Source: a virus | DNA length: 64,000 bases | Direction: 5' to 3' (one strand) | IMG/VR virus record: IMGVR_UViG_3300042396_000723 | Coordinates: 1 to 64,000 of that record | Part shown: one piece after another, positions 2,101 through 24,694 of the stretch | How positions within the stretch are numbered: position 1 is the first letter of the stretch | Layout of the letters: each line of letters opens with the position of its first letter | Translations under genes and position numbers: made by a program | The notes under the pieces: model-generated | Database searches by the model: none | Seen by the model: the letters and a program-made list of their open reading frames with translations, nothing else | Told to the model about the DNA's origin: nothing

Positions 2101-2766
2101 ATGCTTTTTACTCAACACATCAACGCATTAAATTCAGGTATCACCTCCATTCAATCCCGAATTGACGAACTAGAGGCTATTCTTAAAGGGTTACGCAACG
2201 ACAAAACCAATTTGGAAGCCGAACTTCAAACAGTCCTAACCTTAGAAGGTGCGGCGGAATCAGCTATCAATCAAGCTCAGTCTTTTGTTAACGCCGCCGA
2301 TTCTATGGGACGGACTGACCTGATCGCCACTTTCTGGCAGGCTATGGACGCTATGCAAAAAGGAGCGATCGCACAACTCCCAGAATCACCGGAACCCGAA
2401 CCTACCCCCGAACCCGAACCTACCCCCGAACCACAATCCCCAACCGATGACGTGATCACGGTAGAAGTGACACCGGAACCACAATCCCCAACCGATGACG
2501 TGATCACGGTAGAAGTGACACCGGAACCCGAACCCACCACCCCGACAACGCCAGATCCCATGACTGAAACTCAAAACGGTAAAGTCCCTCAGTCGGTAGG
2601 GAGTGCAGCTTTTAGCACAAAAGATGCTACCTTGGAAGAACTAAAAGAATATGTCCGAAACTTTCAATCGGACGATAAGACAAAAGTTCACGGGAAACTT
2701 AGTCAACGAAGTACCTGGGTGATCGCTGCCAAACAACTTATGAATATCTCAGACTACACGAAATAA
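2101..2766 (+). CDS. hypothetical protein with N-terminal coiled coil and PEPT-rich repetitive linker
   Basis: 221-aa ORF; internal PEPEPTPEPEPT and duplicated PEPQSPTDDVITVEVT segment. Confidence 0.55.
   Translation: MLFTQHINALNSGITSIQSRIDELEAILKGLRNDKTNLEAELQTVLTLEGAAESAINQAQSFVNAADSMGRTDLIATFWQAMDAMQKGAIAQLPESPEPEPTPEPEPTPEPQSPTDDVITVEVTPEPQSPTDDVITVEVTPEPEPTTPTTPDPMTETQNGKVPQSVGSAAFSTKDATLEELKEYVRNFQSDDKTKVHGKLSQRSTWVIAAKQLMNISDYTK
2428..2523 (+). repeat. perfect 48-bp tandem direct repeat (2 units) inside CDS 2101-2766
   Basis: gaaccacaatccccaaccgatgacgtgatcacggtagaagtgacaccg occurs twice head-to-tail. Confidence 0.9.
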
Positions 2767-8601: not shown

Positions 8602-9138
8602 ATGTCAGATATTGTAAGATCAATCCGTGCAGAATTGAATCTAGGGGATAAAATTATTGATTGCTACCTATTCCCAGATGGAGAGAAACGGATCGGAATA
8701 GGTGGGGCGAGTATTGCTATCGGACGGAATAAAGAGTATTTGAGCAAGTCGGCTAAAAAGGGTACTAAAACGCTCAATGGCTTATGGGATATAGGTTACA
8801 CAGGTCGCCTAGAGGAAACCGAGATAAAAAATGATAGAGGTGCGACACGAAGTAAGACTATCTCAACCAGAGACTTTACAAAAGTAATCACATGGGACGC
8901 TGTAGTAAACAAAAATCAGAGTTCAATTGTCCTGTTAGCTGCTTTTGCTGAAACTGGGTTAGACGTAATTGTAGACAAGTTGTTCGACAATAAATCCGTA
9001 GATTTCCTACTGGAGAAAATTGTCCACTATACGAAATGGACTACAGAAGATCTCCAGGATGCCTTAAATGCCAACTATGACGATTGGAGCGTGATTGTGG
9101 AACAAGAGCAATTTTTGTTAGAGGGAGGGTTGAACTAA
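8602..9138 (+). CDS. hypothetical protein
   Basis: 178-aa ORF; stop overlaps the next start (TAATG). Confidence 0.55.
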   Translation: MSDIVRSIRAELNLGDKIIDCYLFPDGEKRIGIGGASIAIGRNKEYLSKSAKKGTKTLNGLWDIGYTGRLEETEIKNDRGATRSKTISTRDFTKVITWDAVVNKNQSSIVLLAAFAETGLDVIVDKLFDNKSVDFLLEKIVHYTKWTTEDLQDALNANYDDWSVIVEQEQFLLEGGLN

Positions 9139-10574: not shown

Positions 10575-10680
10575 ACTTTGTTTTACTTCTATGTTTTACA
10601 TCTTAACCGATTTGTTTTACGCTGTCAAGTAGTTTTACATCAGTCTTACTTATATGTTTTACTCGTAAGTAAGACTGATA
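10575..10680. repeat. iteron cluster A: 5 copies of GTTTTAC plus a 12-bp inverted repeat (CAGTCTTACTTA...TAAGTAAGACTG)
   Basis: GTTTTAC at about 10580, 10593, 10614, 10632, 10656; perfect IR at about 10641-10677; TGTCAAGTAGTTTTAC is shared with cluster B. Confidence 0.55.
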
Positions 10681-10991: not shown

Positions 10992-11059
10992 GATAGTTAG
11001 GTGCGGTTGTAGTGTTTGCGGGCTTTTCTTTACCCTATGTATAACAGTATAACAATTCT

Positions 11060-11190
11060 GTCTTACTTTGTCAAGTAGTTTTACTTTAGTATTACTTATA
11101 GGTTTATACTGTTTTACAGAATTACAATTAATCTTACTTATATGTCTTACTATTCGTTTTACATCGTGCTACACTTGAAGGTAAGACACA
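11060..11190. repeat. iteron cluster B: repeated GTTTTAC and CTTACTTATA(T/G)G motifs upstream of the RHH gene
   Basis: TGTCAAGTAGTTTTAC, ATTACTTATAGG, TCTTACTTATATGTCTTAC, CGTTTTAC and inverted GTAAGACA all within about 130 bp. Confidence 0.55.
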
Positions 11191-12507: not shown

Positions 12508-12699
12508 GGGAAACCCTCCTTTGGGTTTTTGTAAGTAATTTTTGAGAAAAGCTGGAGACTTACTACTTCCTCCGGCTTTTCTCATTCCTATATTATACAC
12601 CAAATTAACAGGAGCTTGAATAAAAAACGGGGTATTTAGCAAGTAAATAATATTAAAATTGTGCGGTGGTAAATTACATTAAATACCCTACAATAATCC

Positions 12700-13035
12700 C
12701 TAAATATCCCCATTACCTTCATCTTCTAAACTTTGGATATGCTCAAATACTACGCCCGTTTGATAGATTTGTTCATGGAGTGTGGCAATGGCTTTAACCG
12801 TCTCTACTGCCATCCTTCCGTGAATATGCGTCCCTGATTTGGTTAACTTGCCACAGGCTTTCATTGGGTCATCGCTCTTGGATGCTTGACTATAAGCCTT
12901 TGCACTAACAGCAATAGAAGATGATGCGATTACGTCTAACCCACGCAAATAAACCTCCATCCTTTTGATTCCATCCTCAAGATCCTTTTTATACTTCTCT
13001 CTATTTTCCTCAATCATTGATTTAATTGCCTCCAT
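12700..13035 (-). CDS. hypothetical protein (possibly longer, with N-terminal HTH; see findings)
   Basis: 111-aa ATG ORF; 51 in-frame codons upstream encode an HTH-like segment without an ATG/GTG/TTG. Confidence 0.45.
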   Translation of the reverse strand: MEAIKSMIEENREKYKKDLEDGIKRMEVYLRGLDVIASSSIAVSAKAYSQASKSDDPMKACGKLTKSGTHIHGRMAVETVKAIATLHEQIYQTGVVFEHIQSLEDEGNGDI

Positions 13036-13276
13036 TTTTTCGTTAATAATCTCTCGTTTCCTTTCTTCCCAAATGGGTTGTTTTTTCCAGTGTCTTATTA
13101 TCCCTTCTGAAACTCCAATCTGACTGGCAACCTCTCTGTTGGACAGGGATGGGTTGTCAAGAAATGCCTTAACAGCATCTTTGATCAGATGTGCCTTACC
13201 TCCCTTTATTTCGCAACCTTACGCAATAACAACACTTTAAAGTTAACATAGTTGAAAACATTGCTACAACTTAAAT

Positions 13277-13927
13277 ATGAGTAAACTTAAAATTACTGAG
13301 ACTGATATCTCTAAATTGACCCCTGATCCTAACAATGCAAGGAAAAGAACGCCCTTATCAGCAAGCGTTATTAGGAAATCAATTGAACAATTTGGGATGA
13401 CTCGGAGCATTGTCACCGATGAAAATGGCGTTATTTTGGCGGGTAACGGGGCGTTTGAAGAAGCGGGTCAATTGGGTATTGAAAGGGTGATCGTCGTCGA
13501 AACAACGGGTAATGAGATAGTGGCGGTGAAACGGACAAACCTTACTGCCGAACAGAAAACTCAATATGCCATTGCTGATAATACGGCTTCTGATTTCTCA
13601 ACATGGGATTTTGATATTTTGAGTGAGTTAACTCAGGAAATTGATCTATCTGAGTTTTTCCCTGATGATAAATTGAATGAATTATTAAAACAATTGGGGG
13701 ATAGCAAGAATGAAGGTATCAATGTTTTCCCTGATTATATCAACATGGACGATCAGGATGTAGAGACAACAGCAGAAAATTTTAGCTCGAATGTTAAGAG
13801 GAGTATAATTATTGATTTTCCTGCCGATGAGTATGACGAAGCTAAAAAACTATGTAACACAGCAAAGAAAAAAGGAGAAGATATTGGTGCTATTTTAGTA
13901 TCTGCACTAAAAGATGTTTTACAATAG
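13277..13927 (+). CDS. ParB/Srx-fold (ParB N-terminal domain-like) protein
   Basis: N-terminal ISKLTPDPNNARK...VILAGNGAFEEAGQLGIERVIVV resembles the ParB N-domain but with GNGA in place of GERR; acidic C-terminus. Confidence 0.55.
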   Translation: MSKLKITETDISKLTPDPNNARKRTPLSASVIRKSIEQFGMTRSIVTDENGVILAGNGAFEEAGQLGIERVIVVETTGNEIVAVKRTNLTAEQKTQYAIADNTASDFSTWDFDILSELTQEIDLSEFFPDDKLNELLKQLGDSKNEGINVFPDYINMDDQDVETTAENFSSNVKRSIIIDFPADEYDEAKKLCNTAKKKGEDIGAILVSALKDVLQ

Positions 13928-13951
13928 AGAACGAACCAGTAACCTGTACAA

Positions 13952-14746
13952 ATGAAAGAACAAAAATTAATAGTAACAAAACATGACTACAAAAGAAATG
14001 ATAGCCCAACAAGCCTCATTCCGAACGTAGTAGACTCAACTGTATTCCTTGATTCTATCGGTAACAAAGTTGGATTTTATCTCAGGAGTTTGCCGGATGA
14101 TGTTAATGATGTTTTAGAATATTGCAACAAAGAACTAAGAAGTGACAGAGTACCTAAATCGACAATGCACAGACAATTGCCACTGGGAACTAAAAGCAAG
14201 ACAGGAGCGTGGGAATATGATACTGTCGAACAGGAGTCTGTGATAATCGGATCTGTACCCGCAAAGCCTCACCAAAGAAGACCTTTTAATTCAATAAGTC
14301 AAGTTCATTTAAAAAATTCAGCGTCTGCTTTTATTAAAGGAATGATAGTATTAGCAAAGCTGTCAGAGAATCTGATTAAAGATATTATGCCAGAGCAGTA
14401 TTTTATTCAGAAAAAAATAATAGAAGAAAATGTTTTAAAAAAATTTAGATTTGGAGATTTATTTACTAGCTCTATTAGCAATTATAATATAGCTGCTAAT
14501 TATCATCAGGACAATAGAAATCTCAAGAACACTGTAAATGTTATTTACTCAAAAAAAGAAAATGCCAGTGGTGGAAATCTTCATGTGCCAGACTATGATT
14601 TGGTTTTTGATAGTGTTGACGGATCAATGATCTGTTATCCGGCATGGGCAAACTTACACGGAGTTACACCTATTTTACCCACAAAGAAAGGTGGATACAG
14701 GAATGGTATTGTTTTTTATCCATTAGGAGGTTTGCACAAAGAATAG
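13952..14746 (+). CDS. hypothetical protein, possible 2OG-Fe(II) dioxygenase fold
   Basis: C-terminal H-Q-D (YHQD), a distal His (LHGV) about 50 aa later and Arg (YRNGIVFY) fit the HxD...H...R spacing; weak assignment. Confidence 0.3.
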   Translation: MKEQKLIVTKHDYKRNDSPTSLIPNVVDSTVFLDSIGNKVGFYLRSLPDDVNDVLEYCNKELRSDRVPKSTMHRQLPLGTKSKTGAWEYDTVEQESVIIGSVPAKPHQRRPFNSISQVHLKNSASAFIKGMIVLAKLSENLIKDIMPEQYFIQKKIIEENVLKKFRFGDLFTSSISNYNIAANYHQDNRNLKNTVNVIYSKKENASGGNLHVPDYDLVFDSVDGSMICYPAWANLHGVTPILPTKKGGYRNGIVFYPLGGLHKE

Positions 14747-14822
14747 ATAAAAACATATGAATACTACGATTTTGTTGCATATTGAGGTTAACATAATCAT
14801 AAACCCTTCTACAACTTAAAAT

Positions 14823-15470
14823 ATGAGTAAGCCTAAAATTACTGAGACAGGTATCAGCAAGTTGACGCTATCTATTCACGAAACATTTCAACAAACGATT
14901 CAAGGTGAAGGGTTTTGGTCTGGGACTCCGTGCGATTTCATCCGATTACACGGGTGTCCGGTGGGGTGTTGGTTTTGTGATACTGGGTATAGTTCACAAG
15001 AAACAGTTAAGCCTCCATCAAAAACTTTTAAAACTCTCGACAATTTACTCAGGGAGTTAAAATCTGAGCATATTGTGATATCAGGCGGGGAACCTTTTAT
15101 CCATAAAGAGTTGCCCGAATTGGTTGATGCTCTTAATGATGCTGATAAATTTGTTGCGATTGAGACATCAGGGAGTTTTTTTCAACCCGTTAAAGACACC
15201 TGGATAACCCTTTCCCCAAAAGAACATCTAAATGATCGTTACCCCGTTTTAGACGAGCTATGGGGACTCGCTAACGAAATAAAATTAATTATCTCCACAG
15301 GGCAGGAGATTGATTTTTACAAGAAAAAGTTAGATGCGTTAAATATTCCTATCTACTTACAGCCGGAATGGAATGGCATAAATAAAACCCTTCCTTTAAC
15401 AATTGAATTAGTGATAGAATATAAGTATAGACTTTCTTTGCAAACTCACAAATTAATAGGGGTTCAATAA
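14823..15470 (+). CDS. queE: 7-carboxy-7-deazaguanine synthase QueE (radical SAM)
   Basis: TIQGEG followed by CPVGCWFC (Cx3Cx2C) cluster; length 215 aa. Confidence 0.8.
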   Translation: MSKPKITETGISKLTLSIHETFQQTIQGEGFWSGTPCDFIRLHGCPVGCWFCDTGYSSQETVKPPSKTFKTLDNLLRELKSEHIVISGGEPFIHKELPELVDALNDADKFVAIETSGSFFQPVKDTWITLSPKEHLNDRYPVLDELWGLANEIKLIISTGQEIDFYKKKLDALNIPIYLQPEWNGINKTLPLTIELVIEYKYRLSLQTHKLIGVQ

Positions 15471-15880
15471 TGTGGACACTGGTTAAGAAATTCACCTTTG
15501 AAGCGGCACACCAACTAACTAAACATCAAGGCAAATGCTCAAGACTTCATGGACATAGTTGGGTTGGATATGTTTATGTTTCAGGTGATAACCTAAAACA
15601 ATCAGGTAGTGAAGCGGGGATGGTGATGGATTATGGCGAAATTAAAAAAGTTATCAATCTTTTGGTCGATAATTATTTAGACCACCATTTTTTAAATGAT
15701 ACGACAAAACTAGAAAACCCTACCAGTGAAGAAATAGCGAGATGGATTTATGATCGAATCAAGCTCAAGCTCCCAGGACTTACAGCAATCAGAATCGATG
15801 AAACTTGCACAAGTCAATGCTTCTACTCTGAACTCAGTGATTTCTCTAGTAGAATCCGCAATGGTGACATTATGGGGTGA
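15470..15880 (+). CDS. queD: 6-carboxy-5,6,7,8-tetrahydropterin synthase QueD
   Basis: FTFEAAHQL...CSRLHGHSW...LDHHFLND...ENPTSEEIARWIY...ETCTS, hallmark QueD/PTPS motifs. Confidence 0.8.
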   Translation: MWTLVKKFTFEAAHQLTKHQGKCSRLHGHSWVGYVYVSGDNLKQSGSEAGMVMDYGEIKKVINLLVDNYLDHHFLNDTTKLENPTSEEIARWIYDRIKLKLPGLTAIRIDETCTSQCFYSELSDFSSRIRNGDIMG

Positions 15881-16373
15881 ACTACCAGAAGGAATGAAAG
15901 AGACACCTTCTAGGGTTGTTAAATACTGGGTAGAGATGTCTCAAGGTATAGGCGTTGATCCTTCCGAGTCTTTGAGTAAAGTTTTTGATTGTGGATATGA
16001 CCAGGTAGTGATTGAAAAGGGTATTCCTTTCACTTCATTATGTGAACATCACCTATTACCCTTTTACGGTGTTGCTCATATTGGCTATATTCCTAATCAA
16101 AAAGTTGTAGGGTTATCAAAACTCCCAAGGGTTTTAGAGGTGTTGGCAACACAACCCCAAATTCAAGAAAGATTAACTGAACAGATGGGCGATTTGATTT
16201 TTGATAAGTTGAGTTGTAAAGGTGTTGTAGTAATTTTAGAAGCGGAACATAATTGTATGAGTTGTAGGGGAGTTAAAAAGCATGGGGTGAAAACTATCAC
16301 CAGTTGTTTAAGAGGTGTTTTTATGACTGATTCCGCAGCCAGGGCAGAAGTTTTAAACCTGATTAAAGGATGA
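15798..16373 (+). CDS. folE: GTP cyclohydrolase I FolE
   Basis: CEHHLLPF, GLSKLPR, QPQIQERLT and EAEHNCM motifs; start uncertain (in-frame alternatives 15750 or 15861); overlaps the queD 3' end in another frame. Confidence 0.75.
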   Translation: MKLAQVNASTLNSVISLVESAMVTLWGELPEGMKETPSRVVKYWVEMSQGIGVDPSESLSKVFDCGYDQVVIEKGIPFTSLCEHHLLPFYGVAHIGYIPNQKVVGLSKLPRVLEVLATQPQIQERLTEQMGDLIFDKLSCKGVVVILEAEHNCMSCRGVKKHGVKTITSCLRGVFMTDSAARAEVLNLIKG

Positions 16374-16557
16374 CATGAGAATACATTTGATTATTCCTAT
16401 TAAGGGGGGATGCAAGTTGACTTTGCATCAAATGTTTTATTAGAACAGGAGTACACCAATAATTTATTCTCTTTTGCTTATCAAGAGTACGAAAAATATC
16501 AGCATCAGTATTGGAATGGATTAATTAATCGCGTCAACAGTACAAGGAATGAAAACA

Positions 16558-17268
16558 ATGGCTGATAAATGTTTGGTAATTTTAAGCGGCGGTCAAGATA
16601 GTACGACTTGCTTGGCGATCGCAAAAAGTAAATTCAAAGAAGTTCACGCAGTAACTTTTAATTATGGTCAACGGCATTTAACCGAAATTGAGAGCGCGAT
16701 CAAAATAGCTGAAAAGTTAAACTTAGCTTCCCATGAAATTATCGATCTAGGTCAGGGGATTTTAAAAGGTAGCTCCCCACTGGTCAGCAACAACGAATTG
16801 GGAGTTTATAAGAATGTTGATGAATTACCTGGCGGGGTAGAACCAACTTTTGTTTATAGCAGGAATATTTTATTTTTAACTATTGCATCTAATCGCGCCG
16901 CCGTTATGGGTATTAATGATATCTTTATCGGTGTCTGTGAAGCTGATTATGCGGGTTATTTTGATTGCAGACTAGATTTTATCAATGTCATGTCGAAAGC
17001 GTTAGGAGAGGGTGTTTATGGTTCGCCCGATGCTTTTAAAATTCATACTCCGTTAATGAGCTTAACTAAAGCCGAATCGGTATTATTAGCTAAGGATTTA
17101 TTGGGTGATGATTTTGATTCAGTGATGGAATTAACCCATACTTGTTATGCGGGTGTTAAGGGCGGATGTGGTAAATGTCACGCTTGTTTGATTCGTGACA
17201 GAGGTTTTCAAGAGGCGGGAATAGTTGACCCAATATGGAAGTTTAGAAATGTATCTGTATTTAGTTGA
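16558..17268 (+). CDS. queC: 7-cyano-7-deazaguanine (preQ0) synthase QueC
   Basis: PP-loop SGGQDS and C-terminal zinc motif CYAGVKGGCGKCHAC; internal ATG preferred over track start 16549. Confidence 0.85.
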   Translation: MADKCLVILSGGQDSTTCLAIAKSKFKEVHAVTFNYGQRHLTEIESAIKIAEKLNLASHEIIDLGQGILKGSSPLVSNNELGVYKNVDELPGGVEPTFVYSRNILFLTIASNRAAVMGINDIFIGVCEADYAGYFDCRLDFINVMSKALGEGVYGSPDAFKIHTPLMSLTKAESVLLAKDLLGDDFDSVMELTHTCYAGVKGGCGKCHACLIRDRGFQEAGIVDPIWKFRNVSVFS

Positions 17269-18361
17269 TCACTCATCCGAACGCGGACAACGCAAAGTTC
17301 TTACTGAGGAGAGATATATAAGCTATTTGCAATCCTACGCATTCGTTGGACAAGCGGGTTTTATTGACACTCAAAAATATTGGGAGGAGTTATTGAGGAT
17401 TCATTTAGCTGATACAACAGCAAAACTAAATGGTGACGTTAACATAAAAGAAGTTTTAGTTGATGAAAACAAACCAGAACATCTGTTTAGTTATGCCTAC
17501 CAAAACCACGAATCTCAATGGTCTGATTCTTGGAATCAGACCATTGAGAAAAACAAGAATATGAATATACATTTAGCGGGTCATTCTGTTAACGTTGACA
17601 TGGACAAAGTGGTGAAGCCTTTACATGAAAACCATTTAACAACATTTGCAGACCAGAAAGAAGTTAAAGATACTTTGTCCATTTTGGACAAAGTATCTGA
17701 CTTAAGACCTAGAGTAATAATTGACTCAGGAGCATTTACAGCTTTTACAACTGGGAAAATAATTAATCCTAAAGATTATGCTACATGGTCTTTAGACTTT
17801 CAGAAGCGATGGGAGCATAAAATGAAATCTCTAAGTTTTATGAACCTGGACGTTATTGGTAATCAAGATGATAGCTGGAAAAATCAATCAATACTTGAAT
17901 CGTTAGGAATGAAACCGATTCCTATTATTACTTTTGGATGTGATAAAAAGCATTTAATTAGAGCATTAGATAACTATGATTATATAGCTTTAGGCGGTTT
18001 AGTTCCCCATAGTAGGAATAAAATCAAACTTCAAAAATGGTTAGATTATTGTTTCAACATAATCATGGGAAGATATAAAGAAACGGGTGTTATGTCAAGG
18101 ATTCATTTACTCGGTATAACAACTGATTGGGTACTGAAAAGATATCCCTGCTATAGTTCAGATTCGTCATCATGGGTTGCTTGTTTAAGGTTTGGCGGCG
18201 GTGCTGCTGCGGGTTTAGATAAAATACCCAGATATAAAGAATCAGATGCCGCGTTATCAGCAACAATTCACACTTTACGATCAGAGGTAGTAAAATATAA
18301 AAAGATGGAAACTGAAGCAACAAATTTATGGAAATCAAGGGGAATAATCTGGGATGACTAA
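17249..18361 (+). CDS. dpdA: DpdA-like DNA-guanine transglycosylase (TGT superfamily)
   Basis: VIIDSGAFT (cf. TGT DSGGFQ), YIALGGL and RIHLLGIT motifs; sits directly after preQ0 genes; ATG at 17249 preferred over TTG 17225. Confidence 0.65.
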   Translation: MYLYLVDHSSERGQRKVLTEERYISYLQSYAFVGQAGFIDTQKYWEELLRIHLADTTAKLNGDVNIKEVLVDENKPEHLFSYAYQNHESQWSDSWNQTIEKNKNMNIHLAGHSVNVDMDKVVKPLHENHLTTFADQKEVKDTLSILDKVSDLRPRVIIDSGAFTAFTTGKIINPKDYATWSLDFQKRWEHKMKSLSFMNLDVIGNQDDSWKNQSILESLGMKPIPIITFGCDKKHLIRALDNYDYIALGGLVPHSRNKIKLQKWLDYCFNIIMGRYKETGVMSRIHLLGITTDWVLKRYPCYSSDSSSWVACLRFGGGAAAGLDKIPRYKESDAALSATIHTLRSEVVKYKKMETEATNLWKSRGIIWDD

Positions 18362-19028
18362 TTATAAAGTTGAGCGTGGGGTTTTGGTTGATAGTATTGA
18401 TATTGAACCTAACCCGTGGAACCCCAACAAAACATCTGAACGTCAGCAAGAGGCGATCACAGAATCATTAAATGCCTACGGTCAAATCATAGAATTACTG
18501 GTTAGACCGCATCCAGAAAAAAAGGGTAAATATCAAGTTATTGACGGGGAACATCGTTTAATCTCATTGAGCAACAAAGAGCAAAAAATCTTTGTTAATA
18601 TTATTTACGACTTACCCGATGTCGAAGCAAAGAAATTAACCATTATCCTCAATGAAACCAGGGGTGATGCTGATAAAATCGAACTTGCTAAACTATTGGA
18701 AGATATAAATAATGATTTAGGGATTGAAACGATCATAGGGTTGCCATACAGTTCTAATGAATTGGATGAGTTAATAAAATTAGCTGATATTGATTGGGAT
18801 AATTTTGCTAAGGGTGATGATGGTGACGAATTTGATGAAAATGATCCTACGACTGAATCATCGGAATGGATTACTGTAGTTGTTAAAATCCCTTCTGATG
18901 CGATGGAGAGAATACAAGATGTGTACAACATCGTAAAAGATGAAAGGGGTACTTTACACAAAGATAAAGCGATTGCATGGGGACAGGTTTTGGAGTCTAT
19001 GTCTGCTGATTACTTAGCTGGAAAATAG
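18354..19028 (+). CDS. ParB/Srx-fold (ParB-like nuclease domain) protein
   Basis: IDIEPNPWNPNK...QVIDGEHRL resembles the ParB/sulfiredoxin DGxHR core; overlaps the dpdA stop by 8 nt. Confidence 0.55.
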   Translation: MTNYKVERGVLVDSIDIEPNPWNPNKTSERQQEAITESLNAYGQIIELLVRPHPEKKGKYQVIDGEHRLISLSNKEQKIFVNIIYDLPDVEAKKLTIILNETRGDADKIELAKLLEDINNDLGIETIIGLPYSSNELDELIKLADIDWDNFAKGDDGDEFDENDPTTESSEWITVVVKIPSDAMERIQDVYNIVKDERGTLHKDKAIAWGQVLESMSADYLAGK

Positions 19029-19105
19029 GAATAATTGAACCTAAATTAATCGGGAGATTGCCAGACTAATTAATATTAATTGTGGTACAATAGTTAATAG
19101 AAATC

Positions 19106-19161: not shown

Positions 19162-19431
19162 ATGAATAACTTTAACAAAGAACTGGCTTTAAGTTTACTC
19201 GGATCTGGTAAAGAATACCCCGTTGATTTTGAAGACGCTTGGCAATGGTTGGGATATTCGAGTAAACAGGCTGCCAAAAAGAAGCTAACCCGCAACTTTG
19301 AACAAGAGGAAGACTATTTATCCGAATGGATGAAAACCCCAGATGGCGGTCGTCCTAGCGAATCCATCTATCTCACCGTCGATTGTTTCAAGGCATTAGG
19401 GATTGATTGTTTTAATGTGTTATACTATTAA
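19162..19431 (+). CDS. antirepressor N-terminal (AntA-like) fragment, candidate exon 1
   Basis: 89 aa; VDFEDAWQWLGYS...SIYLTVDCFKALGI resembles the start of phage antirepressor N-domains and stops where the homing-endonuclease gene begins. Confidence 0.4.
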   Translation: MNNFNKELALSLLGSGKEYPVDFEDAWQWLGYSSKQAAKKKLTRNFEQEEDYLSEWMKTPDGGRPSESIYLTVDCFKALGIDCFNVLYY

Positions 19432-20165
19432 AACAATCACACAACACTTTAACAATAAATGAACATCGAAATATCTTCTGTTACGCCCCATCTAATTGAA
19501 GATTTAGCTAAGACAGGAATTTATTCTATTACACAAAAGAGTACGGGAAGAAAATATATAGGGAGTACATCGGAAAATTTTTACCAAAGATGGAGGCGAC
19601 ATTTAAGCGAACTAAAAAAAGGTAATCACCATAGCCAGTTTTTGCAACGAACCTGGGATAAATATGGCTCCGATGATTTTGTATTTGAGATTATTGAATT
19701 TCACGACGTACTATCTGTTTTAGATAATTTATCTTTATTGAATTTAGAACAGTCTTATTTGGATAAATTAACTCCAGAGTTCAATATTTCACCTTCTGCA
19801 CATAGTAGAAAAGGGGTGAAAGTATCGGAAGAAACCCGCACTAGAATCAAAGAAGCAAGAAAATATCAAGTAATGAAACCCGTTAAAGAAGAAACAAAGA
19901 AAAGAATTTCAGAATCAAATAAAGGAAAACATGAGGCAAGTATTGAAACTAGAAGAAAAATGGCTGAAGCAAAAAGAGGATTACCACTTAGGGCTATAAA
20001 TACTTATGTCTTAACATCTCCACTTGGTGTTGATATCACGGTAAATAACCTAAAAGATTTTTGTCGAGAAAATAATCTGAATTATCAAAACCTTTTTCAT
20101 GTTATAAGAGGGAATAGAAAATCTTCTCAGGGATGGAAAATAGTCAAGATAAATCCCTAGAGATG
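19412..20165 (+). mobile_element. candidate HEG-containing intervening sequence (possible group I intron) in antirepressor gene
   Basis: GIY-YIG ORF lies exactly between the two antirepressor halves; boundaries are inferred from the protein break, not from intron structure. Confidence 0.3.
19459..20160 (+). CDS. GIY-YIG homing endonuclease with NUMOD3-like repeats
   Basis: GIYSIT...KYIGST, RWRRHL, and repeated S-E-x-T/N-K-G-K motifs (VSEETRTRIKEARK / ISESNKGKHEASIETRRKMAEAKRG). Confidence 0.85.
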   Translation: MNIEISSVTPHLIEDLAKTGIYSITQKSTGRKYIGSTSENFYQRWRRHLSELKKGNHHSQFLQRTWDKYGSDDFVFEIIEFHDVLSVLDNLSLLNLEQSYLDKLTPEFNISPSAHSRKGVKVSEETRTRIKEARKYQVMKPVKEETKKRISESNKGKHEASIETRRKMAEAKRGLPLRAINTYVLTSPLGVDITVNNLKDFCRENNLNYQNLFHVIRGNRKSSQGWKIVKINP

Positions 20166-20687
20166 TCAGGGACGGAGCAAGGGAAGAAAACCCGACAATA
20201 TTTCCTGCGGTGCGAGAAGGAGTTGAAAAACACTCATGGAATTAATTTACTAGACAAGCCTTCACCTCAACTGATTAGTGATGCGGTTATGGCAGTTTTC
20301 CGACCCACCAATGTTGACCCAACACTTATCTCAGGGGTCATTGCCAACAACATCGCTAAAACTTATCCGGCGCTAGCTCCTGCGATGGAAGAATCCAAAA
20401 AACATCTGACCGTCGAAGTCGAGGGAAAACTTCTCACGCCCACCGAACTCGGATTAATCTTAGAACAGCGCACTGGTGTTAAACACAGTGGCAGACGAGT
20501 TAATCAATTGTTAGCCGAGAATGGATTGCAAACTCCTAACCCCGCGGGGAAAGATCCGGCTTGGGTTCCAACTCCAGAGGGGAGTGCTTTTTCTAAACTG
20601 TTACTTGCAGCGCAGAAGGGCGTTAAGGATGCGACTAGACAACATTTGCAGTGGTTTGAATCTGTTGTAGATGTTTTGGCGGTTTAG
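20163..20687 (+). CDS. antirepressor C-terminal part (KilAC-like), candidate exon 2
   Basis: EQGKKTRQYFLRCEKEL resembles the conserved R-x-YFI-x-E segment ending antirepressor N-domains; LTPTELGLILEQRTGVKHSGRRVNQLLAENGLQ is KilAC-like. Confidence 0.4.
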   Translation: MSGTEQGKKTRQYFLRCEKELKNTHGINLLDKPSPQLISDAVMAVFRPTNVDPTLISGVIANNIAKTYPALAPAMEESKKHLTVEVEGKLLTPTELGLILEQRTGVKHSGRRVNQLLAENGLQTPNPAGKDPAWVPTPEGSAFSKLLLAAQKGVKDATRQHLQWFESVVDVLAV

Positions 20688-24490: not shown

Positions 24491-24694
24491 ATGACTGATT
24501 GGAGTGAGTCTCAATGGCAAGCGCACAAACGCTACGAAGCCACCGAGAAGGCAAAAAAAAGACAGGCTAAATATGAATCCACCGAGAAGGCAAAGAAAAG
24601 ACAGGCTAAATATGAATCCACCGAGGAAGCTAAAGAAAAGCGACGGGTAAGGCAACGGCTTTACCTTCTCAGGAAAAAGGGATTAGCAGAATAA
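24491..24694 (+). CDS. small basic repeat protein (family member 3)
   Basis: Internal tandem KYESTEKAKKRQA repeats encoded by about 42-bp DNA repeats; N-terminus MTDWSESQWQAHKRYEAT matches the paralogs. Confidence 0.45.
   Translation: MTDWSESQWQAHKRYEATEKAKKRQAKYESTEKAKKRQAKYESTEEAKEKRRVRQRLYLLRKKGLAE

What the first reader, a model, noticed from the sequence alone, without database searches (positions are those of the whole stretch)
13264..14868. Duplicated about 58-bp translation-initiation module shared by the ParB-like gene and queE
The sequences around the starts at 13277 and 14823 are about 85 percent identical (ctacaactt aaatatgagtaa.c.taaaattactgagac...ttgac), so both proteins begin MSK(L/P)KITET(D/G)ISKLT. 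QueE has thus acquired a foreign N-terminus and start region, which looks like a recombination scar from module shuffling and may co-regulate the two genes.
Basis: seen in the sequence. Interest (0 to 1): 0.5.

Follow-up and report, generated by a model that had tools for sequence, protein, structure and literature searches.

The report
ParB start region fused onto queE
The repeat is real. The queE operon of this Planktothrix-type cyanophage carries the intergenic region and first 15 codons of the phage's ParB-like gene, a recombination scar at a locus where DNA-modification gene cassettes are repeatedly swapped; it is a clear but ordinary case of phage mosaicism.

Summary
Observation confirmed. 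The core, 13264-13320 vs 14809-14866, matches in 49 of 58 columns (84.5%). Weaker collinear similarity reaches back to about 13220 / 14763. Similarity stops at codon 15 of both genes.

ParB is the native owner. All 29 related IMG/VR phage loci with this start encode ParB-like proteins beginning M[ST]KPKITETDISKLTPDPNNARK, and a ParB profile aligns from residue 2. QueE profiles align only from residue 15-18, and QueE orthologues 69-73% identical have short native N-termini.

The same fusion occurs in related phages where queE sits directly in the ParB slot (L044/L045, and in altered form L046, L033). The window also keeps the last ~13 codons of the ancestral ParB-methyltransferase gene at 19028-19069, just after the cassette. 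So queE-queD-folE-queC-dpdA-parB2 replaced the interior of that gene.

The two copies are not an in-genome duplication. Copy 2 is closer to other phages' ParB alleles (40/45; upstream 84% to L098) than to copy 1. A separate ParB216-TET/JBP cassette with its own start was stacked upstream, with its junction at 14762-14765.

Co-regulation is plausible but untested: there is no consensus promoter, only a conserved -10-like TAACAT. This is a new member of a known kind, of modest interest.

The parts
12700..13210 (-). Divergent HTH-type regulator gene that forms the conserved left flank of the locus. The called ORF is 12700-13035. The reading frame continues to about 13210 without an ATG/GTG/TTG.
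   Evidence: Homologues lie next to ParB or queE in L033, L044 and L098.
13220..13276 (+). Module copy 1, non-coding part: the intergenic region upstream of the ParB-like gene, with a -10-like TAACAT at 13244-13249.
13277..13321 (+). Module copy 1, coding part: codons 1-15 of the ParB-like gene (MSKLKITETDISKLT). This is the native context and forms the start of the ParB N-domain.
13277..13927 (+). ParB-like gene (216 aa). Residues 1-148 are shared with PaV-LD ORF098R and other alleles. The C-terminal third belongs to the TET cassette.
   Evidence: phrog_620, E = 4e-31
13952..14746 (+). TET/JBP-like 2OG-Fe(II) dioxygenase gene, which travels together with the 216-aa ParB form.
   Evidence: Pfam Tet_JBP, 33 bits, just under the cut-off of 34.9
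14747..14764 (+). 3' flank of the ParB216-TET cassette (ATAAAAACATATGAATAC), shared with L028/L049. The junction to module copy 2 lies at 14762-14765, with 2 nt (AC) common to both parents.
14763..14822 (+). Module copy 2, non-coding part: a retained ParB-locus intergenic region, 84% identical to the genuine ParB upstream region of L098. It carries TAACAT at 14789-14794.
14823..14867 (+). Module copy 2, coding part: 15 ParB-derived codons (MSKPKITETGISKLT) fused in frame to queE.
14823..15470 (+). queE (radical-SAM 7-carboxy-7-deazaguanine synthase). The canonical part starts at about residue 16.
15470..18361 (+). Rest of the deazaguanine cassette: queD 15470-15880, folE (longest ORF 15750-16373, probable start 15861), queC 16549-17268, dpdA-like transglycosylase 17225-18361.
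18354..19028 (+). Second ParB-like gene (ParB2, DpdB-like). It is the last gene of the deazaguanine cassette and is conserved with it in L033, L037, L040 and L089.
   Evidence: (ParB_N, E = 1.5e-5, 25.4 bits vs cut-off 26.3)
19028..19069 (+). 3' scar: a non-coding remnant of the last ~13 codons (GIIEPKLIGRLPD*) of the ancestral ParB-methyltransferase gene (PaV-LD ORF098R ends GIEPKLVGRLPD*).

Best explanation
The repeated unit is the expression start of the 'ParB slot' of PaV-LD-like cyanophages. It comprises the short intergenic region next to a divergent HTH regulator gene plus the first 15 codons of a ParB-like gene. In many relatives that gene is fused to a DNA methyltransferase.

Step 1 (shown by comparison). 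In an ancestor, a 7-deazaguanine cassette (queE-queD-folE-queC-dpdA-parB2) replaced the interior of the ParB-methyltransferase gene. That left its upstream region and 15 codons fused in frame to queE, and its last ~13 codons as a non-coding remnant after parB2.

Step 2 (inferred). The left junction lies in a microhomology, AAWTTAACW, between ParB codons 13-15 (K-L-T) and codons 4-6 (N-L-T) of a native queE such as L091. That would explain the in-frame join.

Step 3 (shown). A second cassette was later stacked upstream of this unit, joined at 14762-14765. It is a 216-aa ParB form plus a TET/JBP-like dioxygenase, headed by its own allele of the same start. The window therefore holds two diverged alleles of one module as a direct repeat 1546 bp apart.

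Step 4 (inferred function). Copy 2 gives the queE operon the same 5' leader and start-codon context, and probably the same promoter, as the ParB gene. The 15-residue peptide on QueE is most likely a tolerated, flexible passenger.

Step 5 (inferred). Across the phage group, this conserved patch serves as the common left boundary at which DNA-modification cassettes are exchanged and stacked. The likely mechanism is homologous or relaxed-homologous recombination, supplemented by illegitimate joins.
For: ParB is the donor. 29 of 30 IMG/VR loci with the motif are ParB-like genes; the 30th is the window's own phage. More ParB examples come from metagenomes and MAGs. The ParB profile aligns from residue 2. 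QueE profiles align from residue 15-18.

The tag is not needed by QueE. Orthologues 69-73% identical begin MSLYSSIPVHE or MDFNLTIPVHE, one of them (L091) with its own SD-like site. Cyanobacterial QueEs lack the tag.

queE occupies the ParB slot in relatives. L044/L045 (QueE 86% identical) has the same 15-codon tag and the same junction. Its upstream DNA is nearly identical to that of the ParB gene of L047. In L033/L034 the upstream DNA and the first 3 codons are identical to ParB alleles L018/L066. In L046 the first ~10 codons match ParB allele L067.

The 3' scar is at 19028-19069.

The copies are not an in-genome duplication. The copy-2 tag matches other ParB alleles at 40/45 but copy 1 at only 36/45. 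Its upstream 63 nt are 84% identical to L098's ParB upstream, against 57-67% for copy 1.

Stacking recurs. ParB1-TET-[module]-ParB2 occurs in L002/L007/L021/L025/L031. ParB-MTase-PAPS reductase-ParB-like-[module]-ParB-MTase occurs in L010/L022/L073.

The window's arrangement is seen independently in L027/L032 and in L086 (99.5% identical).

The tag must be translated in L044: there is no other ATG/GTG/TTG before the conserved IHETFQ.

In the AlphaFold model, residues 1-10 have mean pLDDT 48 and the first strand starts at residue 15.

No terminator is predicted between the TET gene and queE.
Against: No sigma-70 consensus promoter was found at either copy. The shared GTTAACATA motif is not enriched elsewhere in the window. 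Promoter activity of copy 2 is therefore inferred only from position and from conservation of a TAnnAT hexamer about 28 nt before the ATG in most alleles.

The direct type-B parent, carrying an L098-like flank next to queE, was not found.

The middle 30 nt of the L033/L034 tag match nothing else, so that lineage's history is unresolved.

Between the window and L044, the tag shows pN/pS 0.32, against 0.19 for the rest of QueE. This does not fit a freely drifting passenger. It may instead reflect exchange with ParB alleles.
Confidence: 0.8

Rival explanations
1. The ParB-derived 15-residue peptide is a selected, functional tag on QueE, for example to bring QueE to the ParB/DpdA DNA-modification machinery or to control its stability. 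It would then be more than a passive scar.
For: The tag persists with the same junction in QueEs that are only 86% identical. Between them its differences are mostly synonymous: pN/pS 0.32, with pS 0.51, similar to 0.42 for the rest of the gene. A tag of similar length persists in QueEs 61-78% identical. It is the only possible start in L044.
Against: QueE orthologues 69-73% identical, in the same kind of cassette, work without it. Residues 1-10 are low-confidence in the model. The piece is the first strand of a ParB domain torn from its fold. Position 10 is G in the window but D in near-identical L086 and in P0001. Both serine codon families (TCN and AGC) occur in ParB alleles and in queE tags. 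That points to exchange with ParB alleles, which would mimic purifying selection.
Confidence: 0.15
2. In this phage, copy 2 is only a 5' leader or promoter. QueE translation would start at TTG 14862 (codon 14), giving MTLSIHETFQ, the length of a canonical QueE N-terminus.
For: TTG at 14862 is in frame, and MTLS-IHE has the same spacing as native N-termini.
Against: The homologous codon in L044 is TTA, which is not a start, so the ATG must be used there. The ATG context is the one the ParB gene uses. No SD-like sequence precedes either candidate.
Confidence: 0.1
3. A recent tandem or segmental duplication within this genome copied the ParB start in front of queE, and the copies then diverged.
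For: The two copies are direct repeats only 1546 bp apart on the same strand.
Against: Copy 2 is closer to ParB alleles of other phages than to copy 1, both in the tag (40/45 vs 36/45) and upstream (84% to L098 vs 57-67%). The same queE fusion exists in phages that have no ParB gene upstream.
Confidence: 0.03
4. The similarity is chance, or a generic start context. Alternatively, ParB took its start from QueE.
For: None beyond the AT-rich composition.
Against: 81% over 80 nt, E = 1.6e-14. No match in any of 100 shuffles. The ParB profile covers the tag and the QueE profiles do not. Dozens of ParB alleles carry it, while cyanobacterial QueEs lack it.
Confidence: 0.01

Closest known systems
Mosaic module boundaries or 'linker' sequences of tailed phages: modular evolution theory and lambdoid phage comparisons (own knowledge), and relaxed homologous recombination by phage recombinases (PMC3945230)
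   Same: A short conserved patch sits at the edge of interchangeable gene blocks in otherwise divergent genomes. Different cassettes follow the same patch in different phages. Junctions show both homology-based and illegitimate joins.
   Different: Here the patch includes the first 15 codons of a gene, so exchange produces a chimeric protein N-terminus. Both the 5' and the 3' scars of the replaced gene are still readable. No recombinase was identified in the window (only 10 ORFs tried).
PaV-LD ORF098R, the ParB-like/DNA methyltransferase gene of Planktothrix phage PaV-LD (NC_016564)
   Same: The upstream region, the first 15 codons and the ParB N-domain are homologous to copy 1 (85% aa over residues 1-150). 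The last 12 codons match the remnant at 19028-19069.
   Different: PaV-LD has no queE cluster, no TET/JBP gene and only one copy of the module. Its ORF carries an in-frame TAA near the 5' end, so it is annotated from a downstream TTG.
PaV-LD-like 'group 3B' metagenomic contigs from Sandusky Bay carrying QueE/QueD/FolE next to an HTH_XRE regulator (PMC10343443)
   Same: L044 comes from a record named Ga0209229_10024185, and that paper names Ga0209229 contigs. It shows queE directly beside the divergent regulator, with the same ParB-derived tag.
   Different: A term search of the paper's main text found no mention of ParB, so the ParB-derived start is apparently not described there. Those contigs lack the ParB216-TET cassette and hence the repeat.
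Phage and bacterial 7-deazaguanine DNA-modification clusters (DpdA with FolE/QueD/QueE/QueC; bacterial DpdA-DpdB) (PMC6884629, PMC10516641, PMC10164549)
   Same: The gene set queE-queD-folE-queC plus a TGT-like DpdA, followed by a ParB-like protein as in the bacterial DpdA/DpdB pair.
   Different: The N-terminal ParB-derived extension of QueE is not a feature of those systems. Term searches of the two phage papers found no phage DpdB. The modified base was not determined here.
Integron cassette arrays and phage morons
   Same: Cassettes are stacked at one site and expressed from signals at the 5' boundary. The ParB216-TET unit brings its own start region, as a moron does.
   Different: There is no integrase, no attC-like inverted repeats and no fixed junction position. 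Junctions vary: codon 3?, ~10, 15 and 19, and upstream boundaries at about -20 to -60.

Membership tests
QueE (7-carboxy-7-deazaguanine synthase, radical SAM) | Radical-SAM Cys triad binding the 4Fe-4S cluster | tested here: met
   C45-x3-C49-x2-C52 is invariant in the alignment of 40 homologues. Pfam Radical_SAM scores 50.7 bits against a cut-off of 29.5.
QueE (7-carboxy-7-deazaguanine synthase, radical SAM) | Scores above the curated cut-off of a QueE equivalog model | tested here: not met
   The five best NCBIfam hits are all QueE models, but all fall below cut-off (best 123.9 bits vs 200). The protein is 55-61% identical to cyanobacterial proteins that sources name QueE. It is a divergent QueE; the function is inferred.
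QueE (7-carboxy-7-deazaguanine synthase, radical SAM) | Pathway context with QueD, FolE and QueC | tested here: met
   QueD (TIGR03367, 102.4 bits vs 89.25), QueC (TIGR00364, 195.5 vs 150.3) and FolE (Pfam, 205 bits) lie immediately downstream.
ParB/Srx N-terminal domain family (owner of the module) | Profile match that covers the N-terminus, including the 15 shared residues | tested here: met
   phrog_620 'ParB-like partition protein', E = 4e-31, residues 2-166. Further ParB and ParB-methyltransferase PHROGs also match.
ParB/Srx N-terminal domain family (owner of the module) | Match to the curated Pfam ParB_N model, or to a solved ParB structure by sequence | tested here: not met
   No Pfam ParB_N hit even at E <= 1. 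No PDB sequence hit at E <= 1. It is a divergent ParB-like domain. The sequence reads AGNGAFEE at the place where ParB2 has DGEHR.
Phage mosaic boundary ('linker') sequence | The same short sequence flanks different gene blocks in related genomes whose neighbouring DNA differs | tested here: met
   The module is followed by ParB forms of 187 to 538 aa, by queE, or by a 28-codon stub. At least five different upstream-region types precede it.
Phage mosaic boundary ('linker') sequence | Recombination actually occurs within the sequence | not testable with these tools
   Only indirect evidence. Polymorphisms (TCT/AGC Ser, ACA/ACT, TTG/CTA/TTA) are shuffled among ParB and queE contexts. Mixed-infection crosses would be needed.
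Integron-like cassette platform | attC-type imperfect inverted repeats at cassette ends, and an adjacent integrase | tested here: not met
   No inverted repeats in or beside either module. Junction positions vary. No integrase was seen in the genes examined.
Dpd-type 7-deazaguanine DNA modification system | A TGT-like DpdA with preQ0 synthesis genes | tested here: met
   phrog_887, E = 6e-36, for 17225-18361. The pathway genes are as listed above.
Dpd-type 7-deazaguanine DNA modification system | A ParB-like DpdB partner next to DpdA | tested here: inconclusive
   ParB2 (18354-19028) overlaps the end of dpdA. Pfam ParB_N scores 25.4 bits against a cut-off of 26.3. It is conserved with the cassette in L033, L037, L040 and L089. 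Orthology to DpdB was not tested.
Dpd-type 7-deazaguanine DNA modification system | A deazaguanine base present in virion DNA | not testable with these tools
   Requires LC-MS of phage DNA.

The most novel reading that the evidence does not exclude
The ParB start module would be a dedicated docking sequence of a hypervariable DNA-modification island in PaV-LD-like cyanophages. Cassettes (methyltransferases, TET/JBP dioxygenase, PAPS-reductase/ParB-like pair, deazaguanine pathway) would be captured and stacked preferentially at this patch. The ParB-derived peptide kept on QueE would be functional, for example tying QueE to the ParB/DpdA machinery, rather than a passive scar.
Probability: 0.15. 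Interest if true: 0.6.

Novelty: new member of a known kind. Interest (0 to 1): 0.35.

Why it matters
The locus gives a readable natural record of how a phage swaps anti-restriction DNA-modification cassettes. Both scars of the replaced gene survive, the in-frame junction lies at a microhomology, and several independent stacking events share one boundary sequence.

For annotation, QueE here starts about 15 residues 'too early' for a known reason. The ParB-like start should also not be used to call two ParB genes.

For cyanophage biology, bloom-associated Planktothrix phages vary their DNA-modification repertoire at one hotspot.

It does not reveal a new mechanism.

Tried and rejected
1. Sigma-70 promoter and intrinsic terminator scan of 12600-15600. 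Nothing at either module, and overall counts equal those of shuffles.

2. RNA folding of both start regions. z-scores were -0.56 and +0.54, so there is no structure.

3. Inverted-repeat search for an operator or parS-like site. None in the modules. By eye, the 10-bp palindrome ACTTTAAAGT in copy 1 is not kept in copy 2.

4. Rfam on the whole window, and at a permissive threshold around the homing-endonuclease gene. Nothing meaningful.

5. Enrichment of the shared GTTAACATA motif as a phage-wide promoter. 10 matches against 9.2 expected.

6. Test for extra nucleotide-level constraint on ParB codons 2-15. pS was 0.38, against 0.46-0.57 downstream, which is only slightly lower. No case for a DNA or RNA element inside the tag.

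7. Origin of the odd 30 nt in the L033/L034 tag. An exact 20-mer scan of IMG/VR found only those two contigs.

8. Search for a recombinase among 10 larger ORFs with PHROGs. None recognised.

9. Pfam, NCBIfam and PDB sequence searches for the 216-aa ParB form. No hits. Only PHROGs recognises it.

10. The hits L072, L076, L079, L080 and L099 to the 20-mer are in non-ParB, non-QueE contexts and were discarded as chance matches.

11. A blastn of the window meant for PaV-LD alone ran against a multi-record file and was not used for synteny.
Full report
**1. The observation**

The ParB-like gene starts at 13277 and queE at 14823. Their products begin MSKLKITETDISKLT and MSKPKITETGISKLT. The core repeat, 13264-13320 vs 14809-14866, has 49 identical positions in 58 columns with one 1-nt indel, i.e. 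84.5%. The repeat finder ranks it as the first direct-repeat family of the window and reports a second collinear block, 13237-13275 vs 14782-14820, at 77%. blastn scores 80 nt at 81% with E = 1.6e-14. The copy-1 39-mer, allowed up to 3 mismatches, matched nothing in any of 100 dinucleotide-preserving shuffles. A further 44 nt upstream are 25/44 identical, which ties the maximum seen anywhere in the window. Similarity stops at the second base of codon 15.

**2. The genes**

| Coordinates | Gene | Evidence |
|---|---|---|
| 13277-13927 | Divergent ParB-like N-domain protein | phrog_620, E = 4e-31, aligned from residue 2; no Pfam, NCBIfam or PDB hit |
| 13952-14746 | TET/JBP-like dioxygenase | Pfam, 33 bits, just under cut-off |
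| 14823-15470 | Radical-SAM QueE | Five QueE models are its best NCBIfam hits, all below curated cut-offs; 55-61% identical to cyanobacterial QueE |
| 15470-18361 | queD, folE, queC, TGT-like dpdA | |
| 18354-19028 | Second ParB-like gene (ParB2) | |

The nearest cultured relative is Planktothrix phage PaV-LD. Its ORF098R is a ParB-N-domain/DNA-methyltransferase fusion at the same position.

**3. Who owns the module**

A scan of IMG/VR with the tag motif returned 30 loci. Of these, 29 are ParB-like genes starting M[ST]KPKITETDISKLTPDPNNARK, with total lengths of 187 to 538 aa. The 30th is the window's own phage. Metagenome and MAG scans add more ParB cases.

The QueE family models align to the window protein only from residue 15-18, at profile position 2-3. 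Cyanobacterial QueEs begin, for example, MLASNLQIKLPIHETFQ. Phage QueEs 69-73% identical begin MSLYSSIPVHETFQ or MDFNLTIPVHETFQ, the latter (L091) preceded by its own AAAGGAG site. The ParB gene is therefore the donor and QueE the recipient.

**4. The same fusion elsewhere**

- **L044/L045** (QueE 86% identical). queE lies directly beside the divergent HTH regulator. It carries the tag MVKPKITETDISKLT with the same junction. Its upstream DNA is almost identical to that of the ParB gene of L047.
- **L033/L034** (77% identical). The upstream region and the first three codons are identical to ParB alleles L018/L066. The tag has the same length and ends in the same CTAACT, but its middle 30 nt are unrelated to anything found.
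- **L046** (61% identical). The first ~10 codons and the leader match ParB allele L067.
- **L023**. A ParB gene is cut after codon 19 and followed by unrelated DNA.

Rearrangements that keep the intergenic region plus a few ParB codons are thus recurrent.

**5. The matching 3' scar**

Immediately after the ParB2 stop codon, 19028-19069 reads GIIEPKLIGRLPD*. This is the C-terminal end of the PaV-LD ParB-methyltransferase (GIEPKLVGRLPD*), followed by the same downstream DNA. The deazaguanine cassette therefore sits inside the shell of an ancestral ParB-methyltransferase gene: 15 codons remain at the 5' end, fused to queE, and about 13 remain at the 3' end as non-coding DNA.

The native L091-type queE start is ATG GAT TTT AAT TTA ACA ATT CCG. 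ParB codons 13-15 are AAA TTA/TTG/CTA ACN. The two share AAWTTAACW. This is a plausible microhomology for the in-frame join, and it is an inference.

**6. Why there are two copies**

The copy-2 tag matches other phages' ParB alleles at up to 40/45 but copy 1 at only 36/45. From 14763 on, its upstream region is 84% identical to the genuine ParB upstream region of L098, where it adjoins the divergent regulator. Copy 1 matches that stretch at only 57-67%. The copies are therefore alleles from different lineages.

The 216-aa ParB form and the TET/JBP gene travel together:
- alone, in L015, L020, L028 and L068;
- in front of a second, module-headed ParB gene, in L002, L007, L021, L025 and L031.

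The cassette's 3' flank (14747-14764) is shared with L028/L049 and then gives way to module copy 2. L010/L022/L073 show another stack: ParB, methyltransferase, PAPS-reductase-like, ParB-like, then [module] ParB-methyltransferase.

The window's own arrangement is found again in L027/L032 and in L086, which is 99.5% identical and has D10 instead of G10. L047 looks like a deletion derivative: TET residues 1-214 are joined to ParB2 residues 140-224.

**7. Function**

Shown:
- queE uses the ParB gene's leader and start codon. In L044 no other start codon exists before the conserved IHETFQ.
- No terminator is predicted between the TET gene and queE.

Inferred:
- Copy 2 retains a promoter. The only support is position (it is the whole retained intergenic region of a divergent gene pair) and a TAnnAT hexamer about 28 nt before the ATG in most alleles.
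- No consensus promoter, RNA structure, inverted repeat or Rfam family was found. The motif is not used elsewhere in the window.

On QueE the tag is probably a flexible appendage. Residues 1-10 have mean pLDDT 48, and the first strand begins at residue 15.

Between the window and L044 the tag shows pN/pS 0.32, against 0.19 for the rest of the gene. Both serine codon families occur in ParB and in queE contexts. Exchange with ParB alleles can therefore explain the conservation without any function for the tag in QueE. ParB alleles show only slightly lower synonymous divergence in the tag (0.38) than downstream (0.46-0.57), so there is no strong nucleotide-level element there.

**8. Comparison and verdict**

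This is a mosaic junction of the kind long described for tailed phages. Relaxed homologous recombination between diverged short sequences is a documented route to such junctions (PMC3945230). PaV-LD-like contigs with QueE/QueD/FolE beside the HTH regulator have been reported (PMC10343443). A term search of that paper found no mention of ParB, so the ParB-derived start, the paired scars and the cassette stacking are apparently not described there. The locus is not integron-like: it has no attC-type repeats and its junctions vary.

The repeat is not an in-genome duplication. Co-regulation is untested.

Novelty: new member of a known kind. Interest: modest.

Noticed in passing
window 18354-19028: A second ParB-like gene (Pfam ParB_N, 25.4 bits, just under cut-off; it contains DGEHR) overlaps the end of the dpdA-like gene. 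It is conserved with the deazaguanine cassette in L033, L037, L040 and L089. It looks like a phage counterpart of the bacterial DpdA/DpdB pair. Term searches of the two phage deazaguanine papers found no phage DpdB.
   Followed up: partly
window 19162-19431, 19459-20160, 20133-20687: An antirepressor-like gene that is one 264-aa ORF in L068 (1265-2059) is split here into an 89-aa and a 184-aa ORF. A GIY-YIG/NUMOD3 homing-endonuclease gene lies between them (Pfam GIY-YIG, E = 2.9e-10). No group I intron was detected by Rfam, even at E <= 1.
   Followed up: partly
window 13952-14746: A TET/JBP-like 2OG-Fe(II) dioxygenase (HQD...H motif) always travels with the 216-aa ParB form. Its best PHROG (phrog_6059, E = 1.3e-39) is labelled 'queuine tRNA-ribosyltransferase', which looks like a mislabel. 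Its substrate is unknown. In this phage it sits next to a deazaguanine pathway.
   Followed up: no
window 13036-13210, minus strand: The divergent regulator's reading frame continues upstream of the called ATG (13035) through an HTH-like stretch (NPSLSNREVASQIGVSEGIIRHWKK) with no ATG/GTG/TTG. An SD-like AAGGGAGGT lies near 13198-13206, suggesting a non-canonical start or a mis-called gene. In PaV-LD the region is annotated as two small ORFs.
   Followed up: partly
L001 (PaV-LD NC_016564) 8680-8840: The PaV-LD ParB-methyltransferase ORF098R has the native ATG and tag at L001:8680. An in-frame TAA and a 13-nt substitution lie about 110 nt downstream, so it is annotated from a TTG at 8838. This may be a pseudogene or a sequencing error.
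   Followed up: no
L047 3676-4523 (IMGVR_UViG_3300034280_001032): TET/JBP residues 1-214 are joined directly to ParB2 residues 140-224, followed by the same 3' scar as in the window. This is apparently a deletion derivative of the window-type island that lost queE through dpdA.
   Followed up: partly
L010 2744-7212 (also L022, L073): Another stacked island: a 191-aa ParB, a SAM-methyltransferase-like ORF, a PAPS-reductase-like ORF and a ParB-like (DGFHR) ORF, then a second module-headed ParB-methyltransferase.
   Followed up: partly
window 2422-2517 and 24533-24610: Perfect-register tandem duplications inside ORFs: 48 nt x2 at 96% and 39 nt x2 at 92%. In addition, 71-nt repeats with TTTTAC-rich units occur at 10589-10659 and 11035-11105, upstream of the 11142 ORF, and may be iteron- or operator-like.
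   Followed up: no
window 15750-16373: The longest folE ORF overlaps queD by 131 nt. Gene calls in relatives (170 aa in L044, L089, L091) imply the real start is the ATG at 15861.
   Followed up: partly
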